A DNA stretch of 64,000 bases. Source: Syntrophales bacterium (GTDB lineage Bacteria > Desulfobacterota > Syntrophia > Syntrophales > PHBD01). The position numbers and the translations under genes are program-made. The stretch is from positions 271,356-335,355 of the forward strand of contig DAOSEM010000001.1 in NCBI GenBank assembly GCA_035363115.1, read 5' to 3'. The notes beneath the pieces are model-generated. The model was not told the origin of the DNA. It searched no databases and was given only the letters and a program-made list of their open reading frames with translations. Below, one piece after another: positions 45,101 to 56,343 of this stretch (within the stretch, counting starts at the first letter, position 1; every line of letters begins with the position of its first letter).

Positions 45101-45330
45101 TCGACAGGACCTCGTTGCGTGACGGCCTCAGGCCGATAAGGAGTTGCCGGGCGAAATGCTCCGGGGGACGAATCAAGGAATGGTCCTTCTATACATGATC
45201 GGGGGCCGCGTGCAGAGGAAAAAATCGGGTCGAAAGAACATCTTGCCCAACGGCCGGGAGGATTGTATCCTCTGCCGCGATACGGGTAGTGTTTCAAGCC
45301 TCCACCCCTTCCCCTGGAAAGGAGAAAATC

Positions 45331-47046
45331 ATGTTCCGGAGAAAAATCGCGCTTTCCGGCAATCGGATGCGGCATTGCCCCGGGAGGGCTCTCGCCGTTC
45401 TTCTCCTGCTGTTCCTGGCTGCCCCGGCAATCCCGGCCGGGGCCTCCGAGACGGTCCCGTCGAAGATCCGGGACGTCATGCTCTTCACGGATCAGGCCCT
45501 GGTCACCCGGGAGGCGTCAATCCGCGTCAAGCCGGGCCTCCACGAGCTGCTCCTGGACGTGGAGGCCTTCCAGGTGGACGGTGACTCCGTCACGGCCAGG
45601 GTCTTCGGGGACGGGGAGATCCTGGGCGTCCAGTTCCGGGAGGTACCCCTCCGGGAGGCGGCCCAGGAGAACATCAGGACCCTGGAGCAGAAGCTCAAGT
45701 CCCTGCGCAGGACGGAGCGGCGCCTGAACGACGACAGGGAGGTCCTCGCAAAGAAGGAGCAGTTTCTGAAATCCGTCGTCTCCTTCTCCGAGGGGCAGGT
45801 GCCCAAGGACATCAAGACGTCCTTCCCGAAAACGGAAGACCTGGACAAGACCGTCCGGTTCCTGGGTACGCAGTTTGATGCCGTCGCGCGGGACCGGCGG
45901 GCCCTGGACGAGAAGATCGAGGACGTCCGGAAGGACATTGCGGTCGCCGAAAAGGAGCTGCAGGCCTTGCGGAGACCCTCGGGAGAGGCGAAGAAGGTCA
46001 TCGAGGTGACCTTCCGGGCCGCCCGGGAGCATCGCATCCGCGTCGAGGCGTCCTACCTCGTGCGGCAGGCCGCGTGGGGCGCCCTCTACCGGGCCTCCGT
46101 TCCCGCCTCCATGGACGGCGTGGACCTGTCCCTGTTTTCCCGGATCCGGCAGAAGACGGGAGAGGACTGGGACAAGGTGGCCCTCTCCCTCTCCAACGTG
46201 GTTCCCCTCAAGGGTGTCGACCTTCCCGAAGCCGCCCCCTGGATCCTCTCGATGCCGAGGCCCGCGCCCATGGCCTACCGGAAGGCCGAGCGCAACGGCA
46301 TGAGCCGGGCCAAGGCCACCATGGCGGCGCCGGCCCCGATGGCGGAGGCCTTGGCCGGGGCCGTGGAAGACGAAGCCCCCGCCCGGGAGGCCGCCTTCGT
46401 CTCTGCCGCCCGGGAGGCGGGTGCGCTGTCCTTCGAGTACCGCATCCCCCAGGCGGTGAGCATCGAGTCGCGGGACAAGGAGACGATCCTGCCCCTGACG
46501 GCTAAGCGCCTCAAGGGGGATTTCTTCCTCTACACGGTGCCGAAGGTCAACAGCCTTGCCTTTCTCGTGTGCCGGACCGCCTCCGACGCGGAGCTCCTGA
46601 GCGGGCCGCTGAACGTCTATTTCAGCGGGCGCTACGTTGGCAAGACCACGCTTGCGGAAAAGCGGCCGGGCAGGGAGTTCTACCTGAACCTGGGGGCCGA
46701 CCGGGAGGTGAAGGTCCAGCGGGTGAAGAGCCGGGACAGGCTGAAGGAGACCCTCTTCGGGATGGAGCGGAACACGGCCGTCCGCGAGCTTTCCTACACG
46801 CTGACGGTCGAGAACCTGAAGGACAAGCCCGTTACCGTCCGGATTCTCGACGCCGTGCCGGTCTCCCGGACCGACCGGATCCAGGTGAAGGACCTGAAGC
46901 TCGACCCCCAGCCGAAGGAAAAGGACGTCCAGGGCCAGGAGGGCGTCTACCTCTGGGAAGTCGCGCTGAAGCCGGGAGAAAAGCGGGATGTCGGCATCTC
47001 CTTCGAGGTGTCCTACCCCAAGGACACGCCGCCCGTCGGCCTGTAG
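45331..47046 (+). CDS. DUF4139 / mucoidy-inhibitor MuiA-like secreted protein
   Basis: ORF trimmed to the ATG at 45331 (GGAAAGGAGAAAATC upstream). Signal peptide, central coiled coil (IRTLEQKLKSLRRTERRLNDDREVLAKKEQ), and beta-rich ends. Family assignment is from memory. Confidence 0.6.
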   Translation: MFRRKIALSGNRMRHCPGRALAVLLLLFLAAPAIPAGASETVPSKIRDVMLFTDQALVTREASIRVKPGLHELLLDVEAFQVDGDSVTARVFGDGEILGVQFREVPLREAAQENIRTLEQKLKSLRRTERRLNDDREVLAKKEQFLKSVVSFSEGQVPKDIKTSFPKTEDLDKTVRFLGTQFDAVARDRRALDEKIEDVRKDIAVAEKELQALRRPSGEAKKVIEVTFRAAREHRIRVEASYLVRQAAWGALYRASVPASMDGVDLSLFSRIRQKTGEDWDKVALSLSNVVPLKGVDLPEAAPWILSMPRPAPMAYRKAERNGMSRAKATMAAPAPMAEALAGAVEDEAPAREAAFVSAAREAGALSFEYRIPQAVSIESRDKETILPLTAKRLKGDFFLYTVPKVNSLAFLVCRTASDAELLSGPLNVYFSGRYVGKTTLAEKRPGREFYLNLGADREVKVQRVKSRDRLKETLFGMERNTAVRELSYTLTVENLKDKPVTVRILDAVPVSRTDRIQVKDLKLDPQPKEKDVQGQEGVYLWEVALKPGEKRDVGISFEVSYPKDTPPVGL

Positions 47047-48699: not shown

Positions 48700-48749
48700 T
48701 TGACAGGCGAAGGGAGAAAACTTAATTTTCGAACCAAAAGTTAAGTTTT
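48700..48749 (+). promoter_or_regulatory. Putative promoter with overlapping TetR operator for the TetR-MFP-RND operon
   Basis: TTGACA (48700-48705), a 17-nt spacer, then TAATTT (48723-48728). 9-bp perfect inverted arms AAAACTTAA (48717-48725) and TTAAGTTTT (48741-48749) flank a TTCGAA-centred spacer. Confidence 0.45.
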
Positions 48750-48762
48750 TCTGGAGCGACTC

Positions 48763-49371
48763 ATGGCCAAGAATCTGGACAAGGAAAAAATCCTCGATGT
48801 GGTCCGCACGATGTCGGTGAAATACGGCTTCGACAAGCTGACCCTGGCGGACATCGTCCGCCCCCTCGGCGTCAAGAAAACGGCCCTCTATCATTACTTC
48901 CCCGGCGGAAAGTGGGAGATGATCGAGGCCATGCTGCACTCCGAGGAAGAGAAGATCATGCGGAAGATGGAGGAGGCCGTCGCCGGGGAATCCGATCCCC
49001 GTCAGAAGCTGCGGGCCATGGTTCTGTCGGTCCTCGAACACACCCGCGGCCTGAGGGAGATGCTGGACGTCCCCAGAGAGATGGCGGAGCAATTGGGCGT
49101 CATTTACGGCAACATCGAGCTGTCCTTCAACCGGAACATGATCGACACGCTCATTGCGATTCTCGAAGAAGGAAAAATTCTGAAAATATTCACGGACATC
49201 GATACGAGTCAGCTGGCCATGTCGATACACTTCATCATGCATCGCATCCATCCGCCCCTTGCCTATGAGGAGAGCTGGCCGGTGCTGAAGGAGCGGGTGG
49301 ACGGGTTTCTGAACCTGCTCTTCTACGGGATCGTCCGCCCTGAATGCCGTCCGGTGCCCGAACGAGCATGA
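48763..49371 (+). CDS. TetR family transcriptional regulator
   Basis: KEKILDVVRTMSVKYGFDKLTLADIVRPLGVKKTALYHYFPGGKWEM is the TetR HTH. Confidence 0.88.
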   Translation: MAKNLDKEKILDVVRTMSVKYGFDKLTLADIVRPLGVKKTALYHYFPGGKWEMIEAMLHSEEEKIMRKMEEAVAGESDPRQKLRAMVLSVLEHTRGLREMLDVPREMAEQLGVIYGNIELSFNRNMIDTLIAILEEGKILKIFTDIDTSQLAMSIHFIMHRIHPPLAYEESWPVLKERVDGFLNLLFYGIVRPECRPVPERA

Positions 49372-49389: not shown

Positions 49390-50460
49390 ATGTTGAAACC
49401 CAGAGGTAATCGTATCGAACGCGTCCGTTTCATTGCCTGCCTTCTCGTGATTCCTGTGTTTCTTGCGGCCGGCTGCAGCGGTGGCAAAAGCGCGAGCGAG
49501 CAGGTGAGCGCCCCCGTCCCCGTGGCCGTGAAAACAATCGAGAAAACGGACGTCGAAAAGGTCATCTCCGTCACTGGGAACATCGAAGGGCTGAGAACCG
49601 CGCGCCTGGGCTTCCTGGTGGCCGGGAAGGTCAACTACATCGCCGCGAGGGAAGGGGAGACGGTCCGGGCGGGGCAGCTCCTGGCCAGCCTCGACCCGGA
49701 GAGCTACCGGATCGGCAAGGAGTTGGCCGACGCCGCCGTCGCCCAAATCGAGGACGAGCACCGGCGACTGACCCTGATGCACGAGCGGAAGAGCCTCTCG
49801 GACGGCGACTACGCGAAGATCAACAGCGGTCTGCGGCAGGCCCGGGCGCAGCAGCGGCTGCAGGCGAAAAACCTGGCGGACACGAGGCTGTACACGCCTT
49901 TCAGCGGGATTCTCCTGAAGCGCGGGGTCGAAGTCGGGGAGATCATCGGCACGGGCATGCCCGTCTTCGCGGTCTCCGACATCCACGTCGTGAAGGTCAA
50001 CGCCTCTGTTCCCGAGACGGACCTGCAGTTCATCCGGATGGGCTCCGAGGCCCGGGTGCGCATTTCCTCCCTCGATTCCGAGTATGCCGGGAAGGTCGTG
50101 GAGATCGGCTCCCTCGCGGAAGCGACGACCCGGGCGTTTCCCGTGAAGATCGAAGTCGGGAACCCCGATCTGCTCATGCGTCCGGGCATGACGGCGGACA
50201 TCCGGATCCAGTCCGGAAAGAAGACGGAGATCATGGCCGTGCCCGGGGAAGCGGTCATGCGAGACCCGGACAATGCGGCCTATGTCTTCGTCGTTGATGA
50301 AAACCGGAAACAGGCCTTCAAGCGCAGGATTTCCCTCGGGGAGATCCGTGAAAACGGCATCGCCGTGACCTCCGGCCTCGCTCCGGGCGAGCAGGTCGTG
50401 GTCGGCGGCCAGCATAAGCTGAATGACGGAACTCCCGTGACAGTCAAGCAGGCACCATGA
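49390..50460 (+). CDS. RND efflux periplasmic adaptor (MFP) lipoprotein
   Basis: Lipobox LAAGC. Also LYTPFSGILLKRGVEVGE and MRPGMTADIRI. ATGA-type overlap with the downstream RND start. Confidence 0.88.
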   Translation: MLKPRGNRIERVRFIACLLVIPVFLAAGCSGGKSASEQVSAPVPVAVKTIEKTDVEKVISVTGNIEGLRTARLGFLVAGKVNYIAAREGETVRAGQLLASLDPESYRIGKELADAAVAQIEDEHRRLTLMHERKSLSDGDYAKINSGLRQARAQQRLQAKNLADTRLYTPFSGILLKRGVEVGEIIGTGMPVFAVSDIHVVKVNASVPETDLQFIRMGSEARVRISSLDSEYAGKVVEIGSLAEATTRAFPVKIEVGNPDLLMRPGMTADIRIQSGKKTEIMAVPGEAVMRDPDNAAYVFVVDENRKQAFKRRISLGEIRENGIAVTSGLAPGEQVVVGGQHKLNDGTPVTVKQAP

Positions 50461-53400
50461 ACTTCGTCAAGAAATCCCTGAAGTATCCCCAGGTCACCGT
50501 CTCCGTCCTCCTCATCCTGTTTGCCGTCGGCACCTTCTCCCTCCTGGAGATGCCGCGGCGCGAGGACGCCAAGATCCGTATCCGGGTGGGGCAGGTCATT
50601 GCCTTCTACCCCGGGGCCGATTCGCTCCAGGTAGAGGAGCAGGTCACGAAGAAGCTGGAGCAGTACCTGTTCCAGTATGAAGAGGTCCGGAAAGAGAAAA
50701 CGACCTCCACCACCCGCGACGGCGTCGTCCTCATCAACGTCTGGCTGAACGACAGCGTGAAAGACCTGGACGTCTTCTGGAGCAAGCTGAACCACCAGTT
50801 GCTCGTCCAGAAGGCCGTCAGCCTGCCGCCGGGTGTCCAGGGACCCATCGTGAATTTCGAGTTCGGCGACGTGGAGGCGCTCCTGATCGCCATTGAAATG
50901 GACGATCCCGACTATGCCCGGATGAGCGACTGTGCCCGGAAGCTGGAAGACAGCCTCCGGACCCTCAAGTCCGTCTCGAAGATCAGGCGCATCGGCGGCC
51001 AGAAGGAGCAGATCCTCATCTCGGCGGACAGCGCGAAGCTGGAGCGATACGGGATGACCTTCGCGACGGCCATGATGGTCCTGCAGTCGCAGAACACCAT
51101 CGGCCCCGCAGGCGACCTTTCGACGCCGGACTCGCAGGTGCGCCTTTACACCAGGGGATATTACCGGACGGAGACGGAGATCGGCGACCAGATCATCGGC
51201 CTGGCCAGGACCGGCGAGACGGTGCGCCTGAGGGACGTGGCGGCGATCCAGAGGCAGTACCAGGAGCCGGCCTCCCGGGCCACGGTCAACGGCAGGAACA
51301 CCATGCTCCTGGCCGTGCAGATGCATGAAGGCCGCAACATCGTCGAGTTCGGGAAAGAGGTGGACCGGAAGCTCGCCGAAACATCGAGGCTCCTCCCGGC
51401 GGGCGTCAAGCTGACCACGATCGTCAACCAGCCCGCCGTGGTCGCGAAAAACGTCGGCCATTTCCTTCGCGAGTTCATGCTGGCCATCGTCGCGGTCATC
51501 CTGGTCATCGTGCTGCTCCTCCCGTTCCGCGTGGCCGCCGTGGCTGCCATGGCCATCCCCATGACCGTCGCCGTGACATTCGGCGTCATGCACGCCCTGG
51601 GCATCGAGCTGCACCAGGTTTCCCTGGCCGCCCTGATCGTGGCGCTGGGCATGGTCGTGGACGACGCCGTCGTCGTTGCCGACAACTACGTGGAGCTGCT
51701 GGACGGGGGAGTGGACCGGAAGACCGCCGCCTGGCGCAGCGCCTCCGACCTCGTGGTGCCCATCCTGGCGGCGACGGTGACCATCATTGCAGCCTTCCTG
51801 CCGATGACGCTTCTGACGGGCATGGTCGGCGAGTTCATCATCGCCCTGCCCCTGACCGTCTCCATCGCCCTGGCGGCTTCCTTTTTCGTCGCCATGGTCC
51901 TGACGCCGCTCCTCTGCCTGACGTTCATCCGGAAGGGCCTTCACGACCGGGAAGAAACCGGGAAGACGAGCGGGAAAAAAGACCGGTCCCTTCTCGACTT
52001 CATGCAGCTTGGATACGACCGGGCCATCGCCTGGTGCATGGCCCACTCCCGGGTGTCGATCTCCGCCTGCCTCGTCATCATCCTGCTGGCGGTGGCCCTG
52101 TACCAGGCCATCCCCCAGAAATTCTTTCCGGCGGCGGAGCGAAACCAGTTTATCGTGGAGCTGTGGATGCCCACGGGCACGAAGCTGGAGAAGACCGGGC
52201 AGGCCGTCCGGAAGATCGAGGGCATGCTGAAAAACGACAGGCGGGTTGTGAACTATGCCGGCTTCATCGGCATGGGGGCGCCGCGCTTTTATTACAATTT
52301 CATTCCCGAGCCGCCGGGCGCCAATTTTGCGCAGGTGATCGTGAACACGAACACGGACGAGGAGGCGAAGCAACTCCAGCGTGAGTTGAACGCCCGGGTG
52401 GACGGAGAGGTCCCCGAAGGGAGGGTCCAGGCCAGGCTCATGCAGCAGGGAGTCCCCGCCGCCGCATCCGTCGAGGTCCGGATCGTCGGCGACGACATCG
52501 CGACCCTGAAAAGCGCCGGCCGCCAGGTGGAGGACATTCTCCGGGAGACCCGCGCCGCCGCCTTCATCCGCTCCGACTTCCGGGAGGACTATTACGGCGT
52601 CTCCGTCCGGCTCCTGGACAATGCCGCCCGCATGGGATTCACCACGGAAAGCGTTGCCAAGTCCATTTACGCCGGCTTCACCGGTGCGCCCGTGTCGACC
52701 CTCTACGAAGGCAACACGCCCGTGGAGATCCTGCTGCGCCTGGACGAGCGGAGCCGGGGCAGCTTCGACCACCTCAGGAACATGTACCTGCCGTCTCCCG
52801 TAACCGGTGCGGCGGTGCCGCTTCGCCAGATCGCGACGCTGGAGCCGCAGTGGCATCACGGCCGGATCCGGCACCTCAATGGTCTCCGGACGCTGACGGT
52901 TCAATGCGAGCCGGCGGAGGGCATCCTGGCCTCGCAGGTCCTGAAAAAGGCGCGGCCGCAGATATCCAGAATCGCGCTCCCACCGGGATTCCGGATCGAA
53001 TATGGCGGGGAATACGAAAACCAGAGGGAGACCTTTTCGGAGATGCTGGTGGTGCTGGCCATCAGCATTGTGCTCATCTTTCTCGTTCTCCTGTTCCAGT
53101 TCCGCAACCTGAAGCAGTCCTTCATCGTCATGCTGACGATTCCCCTGAGCATGTTCGGGGCGTTTCTGGGACTGCTGATCACGGGCAATCCCTTCGGATT
53201 CACCGCCTTTGTCGGCCTGATCAGCCTGTCGGGCATCGTGGTCCGGAACGCCATCATCCTCATCGACCATGCCAACGAGCTCTGCCGCGGCGGCGCTTCC
53301 ATCCGGACGGCCGCCCTGGAATCAGGAAAAAGAAGGCTGCGGCCCATCTTCCTGACGGCCAGCGCGGCGGCGATCGGCGTCCTTCCCATGATCCTTTCCG

Positions 53401-54956
53401 GGTCGCCCCTGTGGAGCCCTCTGGCCAGCGTGATCGCCGTGGGCATCATGCTCTCCATGGTTGTCTCGCTCCTCCTGGTGCCGGTTCTCTACGCCGCCAT
53501 GATCAAGCCTTCCGGCGTCCTGGCGAAGTCCCCGGCAAGCCTTGAAAGGCCCGCCCATACAGGCCTGCGAAAACAAGTCGCTTCCCTGCTCCTGATCGCC
53601 CTGATTCTATTCCCGGCCGGTGCCGGCGCCCAGGACGGCCCGGAGCGGCTGAACCTGCAGAAGGTTACGGAACTGGCCGTCCGGAACAACCGGCTGCTCC
53701 ATATCAGGCAGCTCCAGGTGGACGAAAAGCGGCAGAAAGTGAGCGAAAGCAGGGTCAAGTATTTCCCCGCCGTCGTGGTCGGCGGCTCGTATCAGTACAG
53801 CAGCGTGGCCGGCACGGTCGATCTCAGCCAGGGATTTCTCGGCACGGTTTCCACGGGCTCGGTCCATCTGCCGGTCCCCTCGGTGGACCTGGCCCTGGAT
53901 CTGAACAGTTACGATGTTGCCAGCGCAGGAGTCCGCTTCTATCAGCCCGTCTCGCAGATCCCGAAGATCCGGTCTGGCGTTGAAATTTCCAAGGCGGACC
54001 TCGCGATTTCGGAAATCGAACAGGCCAAGGCGATCATGCAGGTGAAGCAGGCCGCGGAGAAGCTCTATTTCGGCCTGCTGATCCTCCAGAAGCAGAAGGA
54101 AGAGGCACAGATCAAGCGGACCCTGGCGAAACGGAAGCTTCACGACGTCGAGAGCGCCGTCCTGGCCGGCAAGACGACGCCGTCCAGCCTGGCGGGATTG
54201 AAGGCGGCCGTGGCCGACGAGGAGCAGAACCTTCTGAAGATCCGGATCCAGATCGACGACTATTCCGCCGATCTGAGGCACCTGATCGGCCTGCCGTCCT
54301 CCACTCCGTTCGTCCTTGATCCGGTAACCTTCGATGACACCATATACGAACTCATGCCGGTGGATGCCCTGGCCCGGGAGGCGCAGACCGGCAACAGCGA
54401 TCTGAAAGCGGCGGCCGTTCAGAAAGCCAAGGCCGAGCACGCGATAGACGCCAGCCGGTTCAGCTACCTGCCGGACTTCGGCGTGATGGGCGGCTATACC
54501 TGGCAGGAGGGCAATGCGCACTTCCGGCAGAGCGCGATCCATTCCGGGTTCGATCCGGGGTGGAACGTCCGGGACGCCTTCATCGGCGTCTCTCTCCAGT
54601 GGAACATCCAGGACGCCGTCTCCAACGTGTACGTGAAGAGGCAGCGCCTCGCCCTGAAAAGGCAGGCCGAAGAGAACCTGGCCAACACGCTGGAGCAGGT
54701 GAATGCGGACATCGAAAAGGCGCACCGGAGGGCCTCCCAGGCGGTCGAGCTGATTTCCGTCGCCCGGAAGGTCGTCGACTACCGCCGGGAGGATTACCGG
54801 ATCCAGAAGGACCGGTACGAGGCCGGGCTGAGTCTCGAAGCGGACTGTCTCACGGCGAAGGCGGCCCTCATGAAGGCCGAGTCGGACCTCTTTGCCGCGC
54901 AGCTGAATTACCGGATCGTCGTGACGGACCTGCAACTTCTGTCGGGGAGGCTCTAG
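50457..54956 (+). CDS. RND efflux permease continuing in frame into a TolC-like outer-membrane factor domain (1499-aa ORF)
   Basis: The first ~1020 aa form a 12-TM AcrB-family protein (MNFVKKSLKYPQVTVSVLLILFAVG ... LLLVPVLYAAMIKP). Then comes the basic/hydrophobic segment LRKQVASLLLIALILFPAGAGA-QD. The last ~440 aa carry two OEP repeats (LNLQKVTELAVRNNRLLH..., ALAREAQTGNSDLKAAAVQ...). There is no stop between the parts. Confidence 0.8.
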   Translation: MNFVKKSLKYPQVTVSVLLILFAVGTFSLLEMPRREDAKIRIRVGQVIAFYPGADSLQVEEQVTKKLEQYLFQYEEVRKEKTTSTTRDGVVLINVWLNDSVKDLDVFWSKLNHQLLVQKAVSLPPGVQGPIVNFEFGDVEALLIAIEMDDPDYARMSDCARKLEDSLRTLKSVSKIRRIGGQKEQILISADSAKLERYGMTFATAMMVLQSQNTIGPAGDLSTPDSQVRLYTRGYYRTETEIGDQIIGLARTGETVRLRDVAAIQRQYQEPASRATVNGRNTMLLAVQMHEGRNIVEFGKEVDRKLAETSRLLPAGVKLTTIVNQPAVVAKNVGHFLREFMLAIVAVILVIVLLLPFRVAAVAAMAIPMTVAVTFGVMHALGIELHQVSLAALIVALGMVVDDAVVVADNYVELLDGGVDRKTAAWRSASDLVVPILAATVTIIAAFLPMTLLTGMVGEFIIALPLTVSIALAASFFVAMVLTPLLCLTFIRKGLHDREETGKTSGKKDRSLLDFMQLGYDRAIAWCMAHSRVSISACLVIILLAVALYQAIPQKFFPAAERNQFIVELWMPTGTKLEKTGQAVRKIEGMLKNDRRVVNYAGFIGMGAPRFYYNFIPEPPGANFAQVIVNTNTDEEAKQLQRELNARVDGEVPEGRVQARLMQQGVPAAASVEVRIVGDDIATLKSAGRQVEDILRETRAAAFIRSDFREDYYGVSVRLLDNAARMGFTTESVAKSIYAGFTGAPVSTLYEGNTPVEILLRLDERSRGSFDHLRNMYLPSPVTGAAVPLRQIATLEPQWHHGRIRHLNGLRTLTVQCEPAEGILASQVLKKARPQISRIALPPGFRIEYGGEYENQRETFSEMLVVLAISIVLIFLVLLFQFRNLKQSFIVMLTIPLSMFGAFLGLLITGNPFGFTAFVGLISLSGIVVRNAIILIDHANELCRGGASIRTAALESGKRRLRPIFLTASAAAIGVLPMILSGSPLWSPLASVIAVGIMLSMVVSLLLVPVLYAAMIKPSGVLAKSPASLERPAHTGLRKQVASLLLIALILFPAGAGAQDGPERLNLQKVTELAVRNNRLLHIRQLQVDEKRQKVSESRVKYFPAVVVGGSYQYSSVAGTVDLSQGFLGTVSTGSVHLPVPSVDLALDLNSYDVASAGVRFYQPVSQIPKIRSGVEISKADLAISEIEQAKAIMQVKQAAEKLYFGLLILQKQKEEAQIKRTLAKRKLHDVESAVLAGKTTPSSLAGLKAAVADEEQNLLKIRIQIDDYSADLRHLIGLPSSTPFVLDPVTFDDTIYELMPVDALAREAQTGNSDLKAAAVQKAKAEHAIDASRFSYLPDFGVMGGYTWQEGNAHFRQSAIHSGFDPGWNVRDAFIGVSLQWNIQDAVSNVYVKRQRLALKRQAEENLANTLEQVNADIEKAHRRASQAVELISVARKVVDYRREDYRIQKDRYEAGLSLEADCLTAKAALMKAESDLFAAQLNYRIVVTDLQLLSGRL

Positions 54957-55083: not shown

Positions 55084-56289
55084 CTACCGATCTTTGCCGG
55101 CAGGGCCTGTGCCTTTTTTCGGGGATGCGGCAATCCGTTGAAATTCCTGTTCCAGACCACTCAGTCCAGTCGCGCTGATGTTCGTATCCAGCGGGTAGGT
55201 TTCTTTGCCTGGATAGACAACCCACAGATGGGCCAGTCCCAGTTCCCGGAAAGCCGAGTGCATGGAGGCGCTGACAGCCGGTGCTTCCGCATATTTGAAT
55301 TCCACTCCCCAGGGTTTTCCCCGGGCATGAAAGAGAAGATCCAACTCTCCCCCGGTGTGTACGGCCCAAAAGAAAACCTCCTCATCGTGGAGCCCTAAAT
55401 GTCGGATCACCTGCTCCAGGGCAAACCCCTCCCAGGAAGCACCCAGGCGGGGATGATAGAGGAGATCGCTTTCATCCCGGACGGTGAGCAAGGTGTGGAG
55501 GAGGCCGGAGTCGCGGAAATAGATTTTCGGCCTTTTCACGAGCCGTTTCGTTGTGTTGTAGAACCAGGGCTGGAGCTGCCGGATCAGGAAGGTGCCCGTG
55601 AGAATGTCCAGATAATGGCGGACCGCCGTGTCGGAAACGCCCAGGCTGCGCCCGAGTTCCGATACGTTCAGGACCTGACCGTGATAGTGGGACAGCATCG
55701 TCCAGAAACGGCGGAGTTGGAGAGCGGGGACCCGGATTCCCAGATTGGGAACGTCTCTCTCCAGGAAGGTCCTGACAAAGTCTTCTCTCCATGACAGGGA
55801 AGCATCCTCGCTTTCCGCCAGGAAAGAGCGGGGAAATCCGCCCCGGACCCACAACCGGCGGTACTCTTCAGGTTTAACGTCCCGGATGGCAAACCCGCCC
55901 AACTCGACGAAGGAGATGCGTCCGGCCAGGGTCTCGGAGCCTTGAGCAATCAAGTCCCTGGAAGCGCTGCCGAGTATGAGGAACCTTCTGGAGACGTCGC
56001 GGTCGACCAGCACCCGGAGAGCAGGGAAAAGATCGGGGCGGCGTTGAATTTCGTCGATGATGACCAGCCCCTCAAGGGGTTCCAGGGTCAACATGGGATT
56101 GGACAGACGCTCGACGACCCTCGGGTCCTCACAGTCGAAATGATGAAACGCCTTCTCCCCGAGGCGATGGGCATACTGCAGGGCAAGGGTGGTCTTGCCG
56201 CATTGACGGGGACCGAGAAGGGCGACGACGGGGACGCCGCGCAGTTTTTCCTCGATTGTCTGTAACTCTTTTACTCTTATGATTTCCAT
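55084..56289 (-). CDS. AAA-family ATPase with C-terminal DUF4143 domain
   Basis: Walker A LLGPRQCGKTT and Walker B LVIIDEIQ. The C-terminal half is typical of DUF4143 proteins (YFRDSGLLHTLL). Start taken at MEIIRV (56287-56289); the ORF track starts at 56307. Confidence 0.8.
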   Translation of the reverse strand: MEIIRVKELQTIEEKLRGVPVVALLGPRQCGKTTLALQYAHRLGEKAFHHFDCEDPRVVERLSNPMLTLEPLEGLVIIDEIQRRPDLFPALRVLVDRDVSRRFLILGSASRDLIAQGSETLAGRISFVELGGFAIRDVKPEEYRRLWVRGGFPRSFLAESEDASLSWREDFVRTFLERDVPNLGIRVPALQLRRFWTMLSHYHGQVLNVSELGRSLGVSDTAVRHYLDILTGTFLIRQLQPWFYNTTKRLVKRPKIYFRDSGLLHTLLTVRDESDLLYHPRLGASWEGFALEQVIRHLGLHDEEVFFWAVHTGGELDLLFHARGKPWGVEFKYAEAPAVSASMHSAFRELGLAHLWVVYPGKETYPLDTNISATGLSGLEQEFQRIAASPKKGTGPAGKDR

Positions 56290-56300
56290 TGGATGCAATA

Positions 56301-56343
56301 GAACCATGAAATTTCTATTTCTGCAAGAGAAATTTCATGGTTC
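56301..56343. repeat. Perfect 16-bp inverted repeat immediately upstream of the ATPase gene
   Basis: GAACCATGAAATTTCT (56301-56316), an 11-nt loop, then AGAAATTTCATGGTTC (56328-56343). The local segment is AT-rich. Confidence 0.9.

What the first reader, a model, noticed from the sequence alone, without database searches (positions are those of the whole stretch)
53499..53640. RND permease ORF runs without a stop into a TolC-like outer-membrane factor via an internal signal-peptide-like segment
ORF 50457-54956 (1499 aa) contains a complete 12-TM AcrB-family permease. This is followed in frame by LERPAHTGLRKQVASLLLIALILFPAGAGA|QDGPERLNLQK and a full two-repeat OEP/TolC-like domain. The RND C-terminus is cytoplasmic. 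One extra in-to-out hydrophobic segment would therefore deliver the OMF domain to the periplasm. The segment looks like a cleavable signal peptide: basic n-region, a 14-residue h-region, and an AGA-Q signal peptidase I site at 53630/53631. No ATG or GTG with a Shine-Dalgarno sits at the OMF N-terminus. The nearest in-frame starts are the ATG at 53499 inside the RND tail and the CTG at 53565. This suggests a genuine fusion or polyprotein rather than two genes. I am not aware of a characterised RND-OMF fusion.
Basis: partly seen in the sequence, partly recalled or inferred. Interest (0 to 1): 0.6.

Follow-up and report, generated by a model that had tools for sequence, protein, structure and literature searches.

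The report
RND pump fused to TolC channel
One 1499-residue gene encodes both the inner-membrane pump and the outer-membrane exit channel of a drug-efflux machine, joined by the channel's retained export signal; the layout is conserved in many bacteria and appears never to have been studied.

Summary
ORF 50457-54956 has no stop. It encodes a complete AcrB/MexK-type RND permease (res 6-1014), a basic linker, a 12-residue hydrophobic segment ending AGA|Q, and a full TolC-fold outer-membrane factor (OMF).

It is not an assembly error. 82 protein clusters at 95-48% identity have the same architecture, as do 20 or more independent genomes (Syntrophaceae/Smithella, some Bacteroidota, one apparent Emticicia isolate). 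A further 34 representatives at 27-49% identity are also fused.

Split orthologues (Dyadobacter, Larkinella, Chitinophaga, most Bacteroidales) have the OMF gene directly after the RND gene; in three Cytophagales/Chitinophaga loci inspected it overlaps the RND stop by a few bases. That gene starts with an ordinary signal peptide, MKTK...APAYA|QQ. The internal segment is therefore the ancestral OMF signal peptide, captured by frame fusion at least twice.

Across 83 fused proteins the segment varies in sequence but keeps signal-peptidase-I features: Ala at -1 in 81, a small or aliphatic residue at -3 in 82, Gln at +1 in 68, and a 13-residue hydrophobic core. No conserved internal start codon exists.

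The most likely mechanism is a Sec-inserted polyprotein cut by signal peptidase I into a 116-kDa RND (with a 13th helix) and a 49-kDa OMF. Cleavage is inferred, not shown.

The parts
48717..48749 (.). Inverted repeat (13-nt arms, 7-nt spacer) just upstream of the TetR gene. Candidate operator of the operon.
   Evidence: the repeat finder gives arms 48717-48729 and 48737-48749, 92% complementary. Function is inferred only.
48763..49371 (+). TetR-family regulator gene, first gene of the cluster.
   Evidence: Pfam TetR_N, E 2e-8. The same TetR-MFP-RND-OMF order is seen in homologous locus L081.
49390..50460 (+). Periplasmic adaptor (membrane fusion protein) gene, with a lipoprotein-type N-terminus (...VFLAAGC). 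Its stop overlaps the RND start (ATGA).
   Evidence: NCBIfam TIGR01730 RND_mfp, E 3e-62, 210 bits against a cut-off of 94.9. Pfam HlyD_D23 and HlyD_3. Sequence.
50457..54956 (+). Single ORF encoding the RND permease::OMF fusion precursor (1499 aa, 164.7 kDa).
50472..53498 (+). RND permease domain (residues 6-1014), MexK/TriC-like HAE-1 type. The TM4 Asp-Asp pair is at residues 402-403.
   Evidence: Pfam ACR_tran E 7e-185. The closest solved structures are P. aeruginosa MexK (E 1e-155, residues 7-1017) and 6vej, an entry titled 'Probable RND efflux transporter'.
53415..53501 (+). TM12 of the RND domain (about residues 987-1015). It ends on the cytoplasmic side.
   Evidence: AF2 helix at model positions 448-476, equal to residues 987-1015. 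Topology comes from established AcrB structures.
53502..53576 (+). Cytoplasmic linker plus n-region (residues 1016-1040, IKPSGVLAKSPASLERPAHTGLRKQ, 5 basic against 1 acidic residue). The sequence is not conserved but the net positive charge is.
   Evidence: Alignment of 83 fused proteins: median linker 24 aa, mean net charge +1.8. AF2 pLDDT is 35-45, indicating disorder.
53577..53612 (+). h-region of the internal signal peptide (residues 1041-1052, VASLLLIALILF).
   Evidence: The family h-core has a median of 13 residues, interquartile range 12-14. A short helix is predicted at residues 1035-1050 with pLDDT about 62. It is the positional homologue of the N-terminal signal peptide of split orthologues.
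53613..53630 (+). c-region PAGAGA with the predicted signal peptidase I site A-G-A|Q. Cleavage is predicted between nt 53630 and 53631.
   Evidence: -1 is Ala in 81/83, -3 is L/V/A/S/I/G/T in 82/83, +1 is Gln in 68/83. Pro, Gly or Ser/Thr/Asn occurs at -7..-4 in 83/83. Cleavage itself is inferred.
53631..54953 (+). Mature TolC-type outer-membrane factor (residues 1059-1499, 441 aa, 48.9 kDa). There is no lipobox Cys.
   Evidence: Pfam OEP in two stretches. AF2 mean pLDDT 84.5. Foldseek top hits are E. coli TolC, TM 0.71-0.76 over about 445 columns, E 1e-17 to 4e-19. A profile search of PDB sequences gives TolC first, E 2e-11.

Best explanation
The operon TetR-MFP-(RND::OMF) encodes a complete tripartite RND efflux pump in two structural genes. 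The RND permease and the TolC-type outer-membrane factor are translated as one 165-kDa precursor.

After TM12 is inserted (ending in the cytoplasm), the basic linker stays inside. The next 12-13-residue hydrophobic segment is the OMF's ancestral signal peptide. It re-engages SecYEG in the N-in/C-out orientation, and the 441-residue OMF moiety is translocated, just as the two roughly 300-residue periplasmic loops of the RND are.

Signal peptidase I then cuts after Ala-Gly-Ala1058. This releases a mature OMF starting at Gln1059, which folds, trimerises and inserts into the outer membrane by the normal route. The RND is left with a cytoplasmic tail plus a residual 13th helix.

The products then assemble with the lipoprotein adaptor into an ordinary 3:6:3 pump. 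RND and OMF are necessarily made in the 1:1 ratio the complex needs.

Shown here: the fusion is real, old and recurrent, and the junction keeps signal-peptide/SPase I features. Inferred: Sec re-initiation, cleavage and normal assembly.
For: 1. The fusion is conserved. 82 clusters of 1449-1531 aa cover 100% (a few 98-99%) of the query at 95-48% identity, all with PF00873 plus PF02321.
2. Twenty genome loci have more than 1000 open codons upstream of the OMF domain in the RND frame. They include complete-chromosome MAGs and Emticicia sp. W12TSBA100-4.
3. 34 of the best 150 representatives at 50% clustering are also fused, at 27-49% identity. By my inspection of the sequences printed, all 34 junctions show a basic stretch, a hydrophobic run and a small-x-small motif. 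The named sources are Bacteroidales, Bacteroidaceae and Armatimonadota.
4. The junction sequence is free to vary but its features are fixed: -1 Ala 81/83, permissive -3 in 82/83, +1 Gln 68/83, net positive linker, no Cys at +1. The h-core median is 13 residues and a helix breaker at -7..-4 occurs in 83/83.
5. In 51 split orthologous loci the OMF gene follows the RND gene in another frame. In three Cytophagales/Chitinophaga loci inspected (L060, L047, L050) its ATG overlaps the RND stop by a few bases; in Bacteroidales loci the start is less clear. It begins with a classical signal peptide ending A|Q at the aligned position.
6. No conserved in-frame start or SD precedes the h-region. Some fused loci (L007, L015, L020, L075) have no candidate start there at all.
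7. The mature OMF would begin 6 residues before the LNLQKVxxLAxxNN helix, at about the same position as mature E. coli TolC starts (own knowledge). The AF2 model puts residues 5-7 in a strand, followed by about 34 helical residues leading up to the first barrel strand. A 4-residue tether to an inner-membrane helix is therefore incompatible with a TolC-like channel seated in the outer membrane.
8. The linker and c-region are predicted disordered and the 13th helix is predicted only at low confidence, as expected for a signal peptide rather than an integral structural helix.
9. The RND half looks functional: full-length match to MexK with the TM4 DD pair conserved. The adaptor gene is adjacent and translationally coupled.
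Against: There is no experimental evidence of cleavage (no proteomics, N-terminal sequencing or Western blot). No dedicated predictor such as SignalP, and no TM topology tool, was available, so the signal-peptide call rests on my own feature counts. Efficiency of SPase I at an internal site after 12 TM helices depends on context. The -1 Ala and +1 Gln conservation could partly reflect shared ancestry rather than selection, although the 34 distant lineages argue against that. Individual species might also use internal initiation; the window has an ATG at 53499, without an SD. The selective advantage of fusion is unproven. It may be a neutral consequence of a one-base indel at a gene boundary where the two genes abut or overlap.
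Confidence: 0.78

Rival explanations
1. The fusion stays uncleaved. The hydrophobic segment is a permanent 13th TM helix and the OMF domain remains covalently tethered to the RND permease, forming a new kind of single-chain inner-to-outer-membrane conduit or a periplasmic cap.
For: The ORF is continuous and conserved. Cleavage has not been demonstrated. A short helix is predicted for the segment.
Against: The h-core is only about 13 residues, shorter than a stable TM span. Ala at -1 in 81/83 and a helix breaker at -7..-4 in 83/83 have no rationale for a plain anchor. Only 4 residues separate the site from the first structured OMF residue. The AF2 model places that N-terminus about 34 helical residues (roughly 50 A) below the barrel. 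By established pump dimensions this is more than 100 A from the inner membrane, so a TolC-fold trimer in the outer membrane could not be reached. The split orthologues use the same segment as a normal cleavable signal peptide.
Confidence: 0.07
2. Two proteins are made by two translation events. The OMF is produced mainly from an internal start codon inside the long ORF (for example ATG 53499 or a non-canonical start). The read-through fusion is a minor or irrelevant product.
For: The window has an in-frame ATG at 53499, which would give a long n-region followed by the same signal peptide. In the split relatives the OMF is translated separately, by coupling.
Against: The Met is not conserved; that position is V, L or I in most fused homologues. 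No SD-like motif precedes it. Several fused loci have no ATG, GTG or TTG at all between TM12 and the h-region. With no stop codon, ribosomes translating the RND must in any case continue into the OMF, so the precursor is necessarily made.
Confidence: 0.08
3. The fusion is an artefact or a pseudogene. A sequencing or assembly indel, or a recent inactivating frameshift, merged two adjacent genes in this window.
For: Split orthologues differ from the fused form only by reading frame at a gene boundary where the genes abut or overlap. One related assembly (L081) does carry a frameshift in the linker.
Against: The same in-frame junction is found in 82 clusters down to 48% identity, from JGI, ENA, NCBI and Logan assemblies. 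One cluster is seen on 29 contigs and another has 85 member sequences. It occurs in 20 or more genomes of different species. Both halves remain full-length and conserved. The fused state defines a large clade.
Confidence: 0.02

Closest known systems
Canonical tripartite RND pumps with separate genes (E. coli AcrAB-TolC; P. aeruginosa MexJK and TriABC-type pumps)
   Same: All three components are present. The RND half is closest to MexK and to the 6vej RND transporter. The OMF half has the TolC fold. The adaptor is an RND_mfp lipoprotein and a TetR regulator lies upstream. The expected final complex is the same.
   Different: Here the RND and OMF are one polypeptide, and the OMF's signal peptide is internal, after 12 TM helices. 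After processing the RND would carry an extra C-terminal tail and helix. No fused example is mentioned in the held part of the 2021 Chem Rev review (PMC8277102; only the first 300,000 characters are held) or in four literature searches.
Split orthologous operons in Dyadobacter, Larkinella, Chitinophaga and most Bacteroidales/Rikenellaceae (loci L022-L080)
   Same: Same gene order and spacing, with 39-53% OMF identity. The OMF signal peptide aligns with the internal segment and ends A|Q.
   Different: The RND ends with a stop and the OMF has its own start in another frame. In three Cytophagales/Chitinophaga loci inspected (L060, L047, L050) the ATG overlaps the RND stop by a few bases. The window's form is the same unit with the frames merged.
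Bradyrhizobium japonicum FbcH, a cytochrome b-c1 precursor polyprotein cleaved at an internal signal sequence (own knowledge, Thony-Meyer et al. 1991; not retrievable in the held library)
   Same: A polytopic inner-membrane protein is followed in the same chain by a Sec-exported partner. The two are separated by an internal signal-peptide-like segment that is cleaved to give two subunits of one complex in a 1:1 ratio.
   Different: The families are different. Both FbcH products stay at the inner membrane, whereas here the released product must travel to and insert into the outer membrane.
Viral envelope glycoprotein polyproteins processed by host signal peptidase at internal signal peptides (for example bunyavirus Gn/Gc; PMC7926653)
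   Same: The logic is the same: successive TM or signal segments in one chain, cut co-translationally by signal peptidase.
   Different: That is eukaryotic ER machinery acting on unrelated proteins.
SecDF single-chain fusion of Thermus thermophilus (RND superfamily; PMC8277102)
   Same: A natural fusion of two partner membrane proteins of the RND superfamily.
   Different: SecDF stays uncleaved and both halves are inner-membrane proteins. No signal peptidase site is involved.

Membership tests
RND permease, HAE-1 / AcrB-MexK type (Pfam PF00873) | Full-length match to the ACR_tran model, covering 12 TM helices and two large periplasmic loops | tested here: met
   Residues 6-1014 match profile positions 4-1019 of 1021, E 7e-185. 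There is an end-to-end alignment to MexK, E 1e-155. The NCBIfam subfamily models score below their strict cut-offs (512 against 1250 bits), so this is a divergent subfamily member rather than an equivalog of a named pump.
RND permease, HAE-1 / AcrB-MexK type (Pfam PF00873) | Proton-relay residues: Asp-Asp pair in TM4 and a basic residue in TM10 | tested here: met
   VVDDAVVV (residues 400-407) aligns with LVDDAIIA of MexK. vvRNaiilid aligns with imRNsvilvd. The same residues are nearly invariant in the family. The role of these residues comes from established AcrB work.
RND permease, HAE-1 / AcrB-MexK type (Pfam PF00873) | Homotrimer that transports substrates using the proton-motive force | not testable with these tools
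   Needs biochemistry or a structure.
Outer membrane factor (OMF / TolC family, Pfam PF02321) | Two tandem OEP repeats | tested here: met
   OEP in 2 stretches, E 2e-40 to 8e-44. TIGR01844 TolC subfamily scores E 4e-16 but is below its cut-off.
Outer membrane factor (OMF / TolC family, Pfam PF02321) | TolC fold: long alpha-helical hairpins plus four beta-strands per protomer | tested here: met
   AF2 pLDDT 84.5, with helices 110-178, 184-219, 326-397 and 403-438 and strand pairs. Foldseek matches TolC, ST50, OprM, CusC and CmeC with probability 1.00 and TM 0.63-0.76.
Outer membrane factor (OMF / TolC family, Pfam PF02321) | Made as a separate secreted protein with an N-terminal signal peptide | tested here: not met
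   The signal peptide is internal, at residues 1034-1058 of a 1499-aa ORF, with no conserved independent start. This is the variant feature. Split orthologues do meet it.
Outer membrane factor (OMF / TolC family, Pfam PF02321) | NodT/OprM subclass: lipobox with Cys at +1 | tested here: not met
   +1 is Gln in 68/83 and never Cys. The protein is TolC-type, not the lipoprotein type.
Sec-type signal peptide cleaved by signal peptidase I | Positively charged n-region, h-region of about 7-15 hydrophobic residues, and a c-region with a helix breaker | tested here: met
   In the window: R1038-K1039, then VASLLLIALILF (12 residues), then PAGAGA. In the family: net positive linker, h-core median 13, and a breaker (P in 55, G in 10, S/T/N in 18) at -7..-4 in 83/83.
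Sec-type signal peptide cleaved by signal peptidase I | -3/-1 rule: small residue at -1, small or aliphatic uncharged residue at -3 | tested here: met
   -1 is Ala in 81/83 (plus one Ser); -3 is L/V/A/S/I/G/T in 82/83. By my inspection, the 34 distant fused representatives show the same pattern, with A or G at -1.
Sec-type signal peptide cleaved by signal peptidase I | Located at the N-terminus of the precursor | tested here: not met
   It lies after residue 1033. It works like a signal peptide but is not N-terminal.
Sec-type signal peptide cleaved by signal peptidase I | Actually cleaved in vivo | not testable with these tools
   Needs proteomics, N-terminal sequencing or immunoblots.
Tripartite RND efflux operon | An adjacent periplasmic adaptor (MFP) gene co-transcribed with the RND gene | tested here: met
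   The MFP gene is at 49390-50460. TIGR01730 scores above its cut-off. The gene overlaps the RND start by 4 nt.

The most novel reading that the evidence does not exclude
The fusion may be more than a neutral frame merger. Obligatory co-translational synthesis could deliver each OMF protomer at the very site where its RND partner is inserted, enforcing cis-assembly and strict 1:1 stoichiometry of inner- and outer-membrane components. The signal-peptide remnant left on the RND, a 13th helix plus a basic tail, could be a functional appendage in the manner of a built-in AcrZ-like modulator. Alternatively, a fraction of precursor could stay uncleaved as an inner-membrane-anchored regulator. Any of these would be a new principle for coordinating envelope-spanning machines.
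Probability: 0.12. Interest if true: 0.8.

Novelty: new variant of a known kind. Interest (0 to 1): 0.58.

Why it matters
It shows that an inner-membrane transporter and its outer-membrane channel can be encoded as one polyprotein, because the channel's signal peptide still works when buried behind 12 TM helices. That is a natural test case for Sec re-initiation and signal peptidase I action at internal sites.

It is also a ready-made design for expressing RND and OMF at a fixed 1:1 ratio.

There is a practical consequence for annotation. NCBI names these proteins only 'efflux RND transporter permease subunit'. The OMF half is therefore invisible in gene inventories of Syntrophia, Bacteroidales and Armatimonadota, and genomes may wrongly appear to lack an outer-membrane channel for these pumps.

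On the evolutionary side, the finding documents repeated fusion at a gene boundary where the two genes abut or overlap, and probable cross-phylum transfer of the fused operon.

Tried and rejected
- **Literature.** Four searches for a described natural RND-OMF fusion and a term search inside the 2021 Chem Rev review found nothing. Only the first 300,000 characters of that review are held. The absence covers open-access papers and bioRxiv only.
- **fbcH precedent.** Searches for the bacterial fbcH polyprotein found nothing usable. It is cited from memory.
- **Automated site finder.** A regex-based cleavage-site finder for the 34 distant fusions picked premature sites and missed 10 of them. I discarded it and read the junctions printed by eye.
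- **Artefact hypothesis.** Rejected on conservation.
- **Lipoprotein (SPase II) processing.** Rejected: no Cys at +1.
- **P0081 as a true reversion to split genes.** P0081 is a 1056-aa RND-only relative. It is a frameshift in the linker, and the OMF frame has no start codon.
- **AF2 of the RND C-terminal half plus segment.** It gave no confident packing of the 13th helix, so it neither supports nor excludes a structural role.
- **Other scans.** The promoter/terminator scan of the operon was uninformative (0 promoter-like sites; terminator-like sites below the shuffle mean). Rfam and tRNA scans of the window found nothing.
Full report
**Observation**

The window contains a 1499-codon ORF on the + strand, 50457-54956, with no stop at the junction.

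Pfam places a full-length ACR_tran domain on residues 6-1014 (E 7e-185) and two OEP stretches reaching residue 1497. The upstream gene, 49390-50460, is an RND-type periplasmic adaptor (TIGR01730, above cut-off). It has a lipoprotein-like N-terminus, and its stop overlaps the RND start codon. A TetR-family gene at 48763-49371 precedes it. The cluster is therefore TetR - MFP - RND::OMF.

The proposed AGA|Q site falls at nt 53630/53631. The only canonical in-frame start between TM12 and the OMF domain is the ATG at 53499, and it has no SD-like motif.

**Is the fusion real?**

A search of 5.8 billion clustered proteins returned 82 clusters of 1449-1531 residues. They cover 100% of the query (a few 98-99%) at 95% down to 48% identity, and every one carries both PF00873 and PF02321. 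The sources are independent (JGI, ENA, NCBI, Logan). One cluster was seen on 29 contigs and another has 85 member sequences.

I scanned one genome per species with an alignment of the OMF domain alone. This returned 80 loci, and in all but two, which are cut at a contig end, an RND gene lies immediately upstream.
- In 20 loci more than 1000 codons are open upstream of the OMF domain in the RND frame. These include every complete Syntrophaceae/Smithella/Smithellaceae locus, among them two complete-chromosome MAGs.
- The fused loci also include a Bacteroidales MAG (L024), two Bacteroidetes MAGs (L073, L079) and Emticicia sp. W12TSBA100-4, a RefSeq record not labelled as a MAG.
- Four more loci are open up to the contig edge, one of them a Mariniphaga MAG (L026).
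- Four have an open junction but stops further up in the RND part.
- L001, an uncultured Syntrophaceae bacterium, is 95% identical to the window.

An assembly artefact or a recent pseudogene is therefore excluded.

**Where the junction comes from**

In 51 of the 80 loci the OMF is in a different frame from the RND. These are Dyadobacter, Larkinella, Chitinophaga and most Bacteroidales/Rikenellaceae.

In Dyadobacter fermentans (L060) the RND ends ...KPYDKKDLMVTPVAEHHEN*. The OMF starts inside that tail (ATGAAAACTAA, a few-base overlap) with MKTKLIFPILTLCTVALAPAYA|QQAQPLTLEQ. Larkinella (L047) and Chitinophaga (L050) show a similar ATG overlapping the RND stop; in the Bacteroidales loci the start is less clear.

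Nearly all of the 51 split orthologues show a comparable N-terminal signal peptide, typically ending A|Q, at the aligned position; the exceptions are loci where my start-codon pick truncated it. The internal hydrophobic segment of the fusion is thus the positional homologue of the OMF's own signal peptide. The fusion is what results when the two frames are merged by a small indel.

A neighbour-joining tree of the OMF domains puts the window and all Syntrophia copies, plus three Bacteroidales/Mariniphaga copies, in one fused clade. That clade is sister to a split Bacteroidales/Rikenellaceae clade. The Emticicia fusion sits separately among split Cytophagales and Chitinophaga. This implies at least two independent fusions.

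An exhaustive HMMER search of 1.84 billion representatives, using residues 300-1499 as query, found that 34 of the best 150 are also at least 1400 aa long, at 27-49% identity, and most of them match both halves of the query. Where named, they come from Bacteroidales, Bacteroidaceae and Armatimonadota MAGs. The architecture is widespread and recurrent.

**Is the segment kept as a signal peptide?**

The 83 fused proteins share almost no sequence across the linker and the hydrophobic segment, but the physical features are fixed:
- the linker has a median of 24 residues and a net positive charge;
- the hydrophobic core has a median of 13 residues (interquartile range 12-14);
- Pro (55), Gly (10) or Ser/Thr/Asn (18) occurs at -7..-4;
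- Ala is at -1 in 81/83;
- L/V/A/S/I/G/T is at -3 in 82/83;
- Gln is at +1 in 68/83, and Cys never is.

This is the n/h/c organisation and the -3/-1 rule of signal peptidase I substrates. It is not a lipobox, and the core is too short for a stable TM anchor.

By my inspection of the junctions printed, all 34 distant fused representatives show the same design. Examples are ...LLLLTTLPAQA|QTQLLTVDQA and ...ALVLALGLLPATAGA|QPGALTLEQV.

The +1 Gln preference is the 'Q-rule' described for Bacteroidetes SPase I substrates (PMC5837995). Together with the tree, this suggests the fused operon reached Syntrophia from Bacteroidota. That is an inference. The operon GC (62.8%) matches the window (64.2%), so any transfer is not recent.

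**Internal initiation**

The Met at the end of TM12 is not conserved. In 23 fused loci no in-frame ATG, GTG or TTG with an SD-like motif is conserved ahead of the h-region. L007, L015, L020 and L075 have no candidate there at all. Because there is no stop, every ribosome finishing the RND must continue into the OMF.

**Are the two halves intact?**

The RND half aligns end to end with P. aeruginosa MexK (E 1e-155), and next best with PDB entry 6vej, titled 'Probable RND efflux transporter' (E 1e-126). It keeps the TM4 Asp-Asp pair and the TM10 basic residue.

The OMF half, modelled from a 12-sequence alignment, has mean pLDDT 84.5. It matches E. coli TolC and other OMFs over about 445 columns, with TM 0.71-0.76 for the TolC entries. 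A profile search of PDB sequences also finds TolC first.

In the model, residues 5-7 form a short strand. Helices 9-19 and 21-42 then lead up to the first barrel strand at residue 47. The mature N-terminus therefore sits roughly 50 A below the barrel.

Established dimensions are a 100-A TolC helical barrel and a 70-A AcrB periplasmic headpiece, plus the adaptor (own knowledge of the published structures). On those figures, that point is more than 100 A from the inner membrane. Only four residues (QDGP) separate the putative cleavage site from the first structured residue. An uncleaved tether is therefore incompatible with a TolC-like channel seated in the outer membrane.

A second model covered residues 540-1058. 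It gives TM12 as residues 987-1015, a disordered linker (pLDDT 35-45), a short helix at 1035-1050 (pLDDT about 62) and a disordered c-region. This is what one expects of a signal peptide, and it gives no evidence of a structural 13th helix.

**Mechanism proposed**

1. The precursor is inserted co-translationally.
2. After TM12 the basic linker stays cytoplasmic.
3. The h-region re-engages SecYEG in the N-in/C-out orientation, and the 441-residue OMF moiety is translocated. The RND already needs this for its two large periplasmic loops.
4. Signal peptidase I cuts after A1058. This gives a 115.9-kDa RND with a C-terminal tail plus a residual helix, and a 48.9-kDa OMF beginning at Gln1059.
5. The OMF then follows the normal route to the outer membrane, and the pump assembles with the lipoprotein adaptor.

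The fusion guarantees equimolar synthesis, matching the 3:3 RND:OMF stoichiometry. It may equally be a neutral, hard-to-reverse outcome of an indel at a gene boundary where the two genes abut or overlap, tolerated because the signal peptide works internally.

Steps 1-5 are inferred. What is shown is that the fusion is real and old, and that signal-peptide and SPase I features are conserved.

**Rivals**

| Rival | Probability | Main evidence against |
|---|---|---|
| Permanently tethered single-chain conduit | about 0.07 | Geometry and the conserved cleavage motif |
| OMF made mainly by internal initiation | about 0.08 | No conserved start; read-through is unavoidable |
| Artefact or pseudogene | about 0.02 | Conservation |

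**Comparison with what is known**

Functionally this is an ordinary tripartite RND pump of the MexK/TolC kind. The variant feature is the polyprotein organisation with an internal signal peptide.

The nearest mechanistic precedents are the Bradyrhizobium FbcH cytochrome b/c1 polyprotein (own knowledge; not in the held library) and viral glycoprotein polyproteins cut by signal peptidase (PMC7926653).

I found no description of a natural RND-OMF fusion in the held literature. JGI's automatic names ('AcrB/outer membrane protein TolC') show that the domain pair is visible in databases. NCBI names only the RND half.

I rate it a new variant of a known kind. It is of moderate-to-good interest and is directly testable in the apparent Emticicia isolate or by heterologous expression.

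Noticed in passing
window 48717-48749: A 13-nt inverted repeat (AAAACTTAATTTT / AAAGTTAAGTTTT, 7-nt spacer) lies about 15 nt upstream of the TetR gene start. It is a plausible TetR operator controlling the efflux operon.
   Followed up: partly
window 53631 (Gln1059) and the aligned +1 position in P0001-P0087: Gln at +1 of the predicted cleavage site in 68/83 fused proteins, including the Syntrophia copies. This matches the Bacteroidetes 'Q-rule' (PMC5837995). Together with the OMF tree, it hints that the fused operon moved from Bacteroidota into Syntrophia. Whether Syntrophia signal peptides generally follow a Q-rule, or whether these organisms have a glutaminyl cyclase, was not tested.
   Followed up: partly
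L081:7020-7300 (ENA ERZ21831006 contig_1; protein P0081): A close relative (69% identity) is called as a 1056-aa RND plus a separate OMF lacking a signal peptide. In fact the usual linker and signal peptide (DKAKTALKPGPIIALLVVAIFFAIPNVNA|QESPEKLTLQKV) are present in another frame, with no start codon. This is a frameshift in the linker, probably a long-read indel or a pseudogene.
   Followed up: yes
L013, L014, L017, L072 (RND part upstream of the OMF match): In these four fused-clade loci the junction is open, but a stop interrupts the RND frame 148-910 codons upstream. Whether these are assembly indels or decaying copies was not resolved.
   Followed up: no
L073 / L074:5856-6001 (Emticicia sp. 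W12TSBA100-4 and a matching Bacteroidetes MAG): This is a second, apparently independent RND::OMF fusion nested among split Cytophagales/Chitinophaga orthologues. The junction is ...KPSDKKDVMPIKAVETSESEENNEPDGGNLAPIIATIAFFIISTTAFA|QTPLSL. The genome appears to be from an isolate, so it may be the most tractable organism for experiments.
   Followed up: partly
P0009, P0017, P0068, P0290, P0192 (names): NCBI product names for fused proteins mention only the RND half ('efflux RND transporter permease subunit', 'Cobalt-zinc-cadmium resistance protein CzcA'). The OMF half is unannotated, so OMF counts in these genomes are underestimated.
   Followed up: no
L060:5920-5930 and the equivalent positions in other Dyadobacter/Larkinella loci: In split orthologues the OMF start codon lies inside the last codons of the RND gene (ATGAAAACTAA, a few-base overlap). 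This is a translational-coupling arrangement that is one small indel away from the fused form.
   Followed up: yes
window 55084-56307 (-) and 45289-47046 (+): The flanking genes are unrelated to efflux. Downstream, on the opposite strand, is an AAA_14/DUF4143 ATPase. Upstream is a DUF4140/DUF4139 protein. The efflux cluster therefore appears to be a self-contained three-gene unit.
   Followed up: no
window 1-64000: No tRNA gene and no Rfam family at gathering threshold was found anywhere in the 64-kb window. The window GC is 64.2%.
   Followed up: yes
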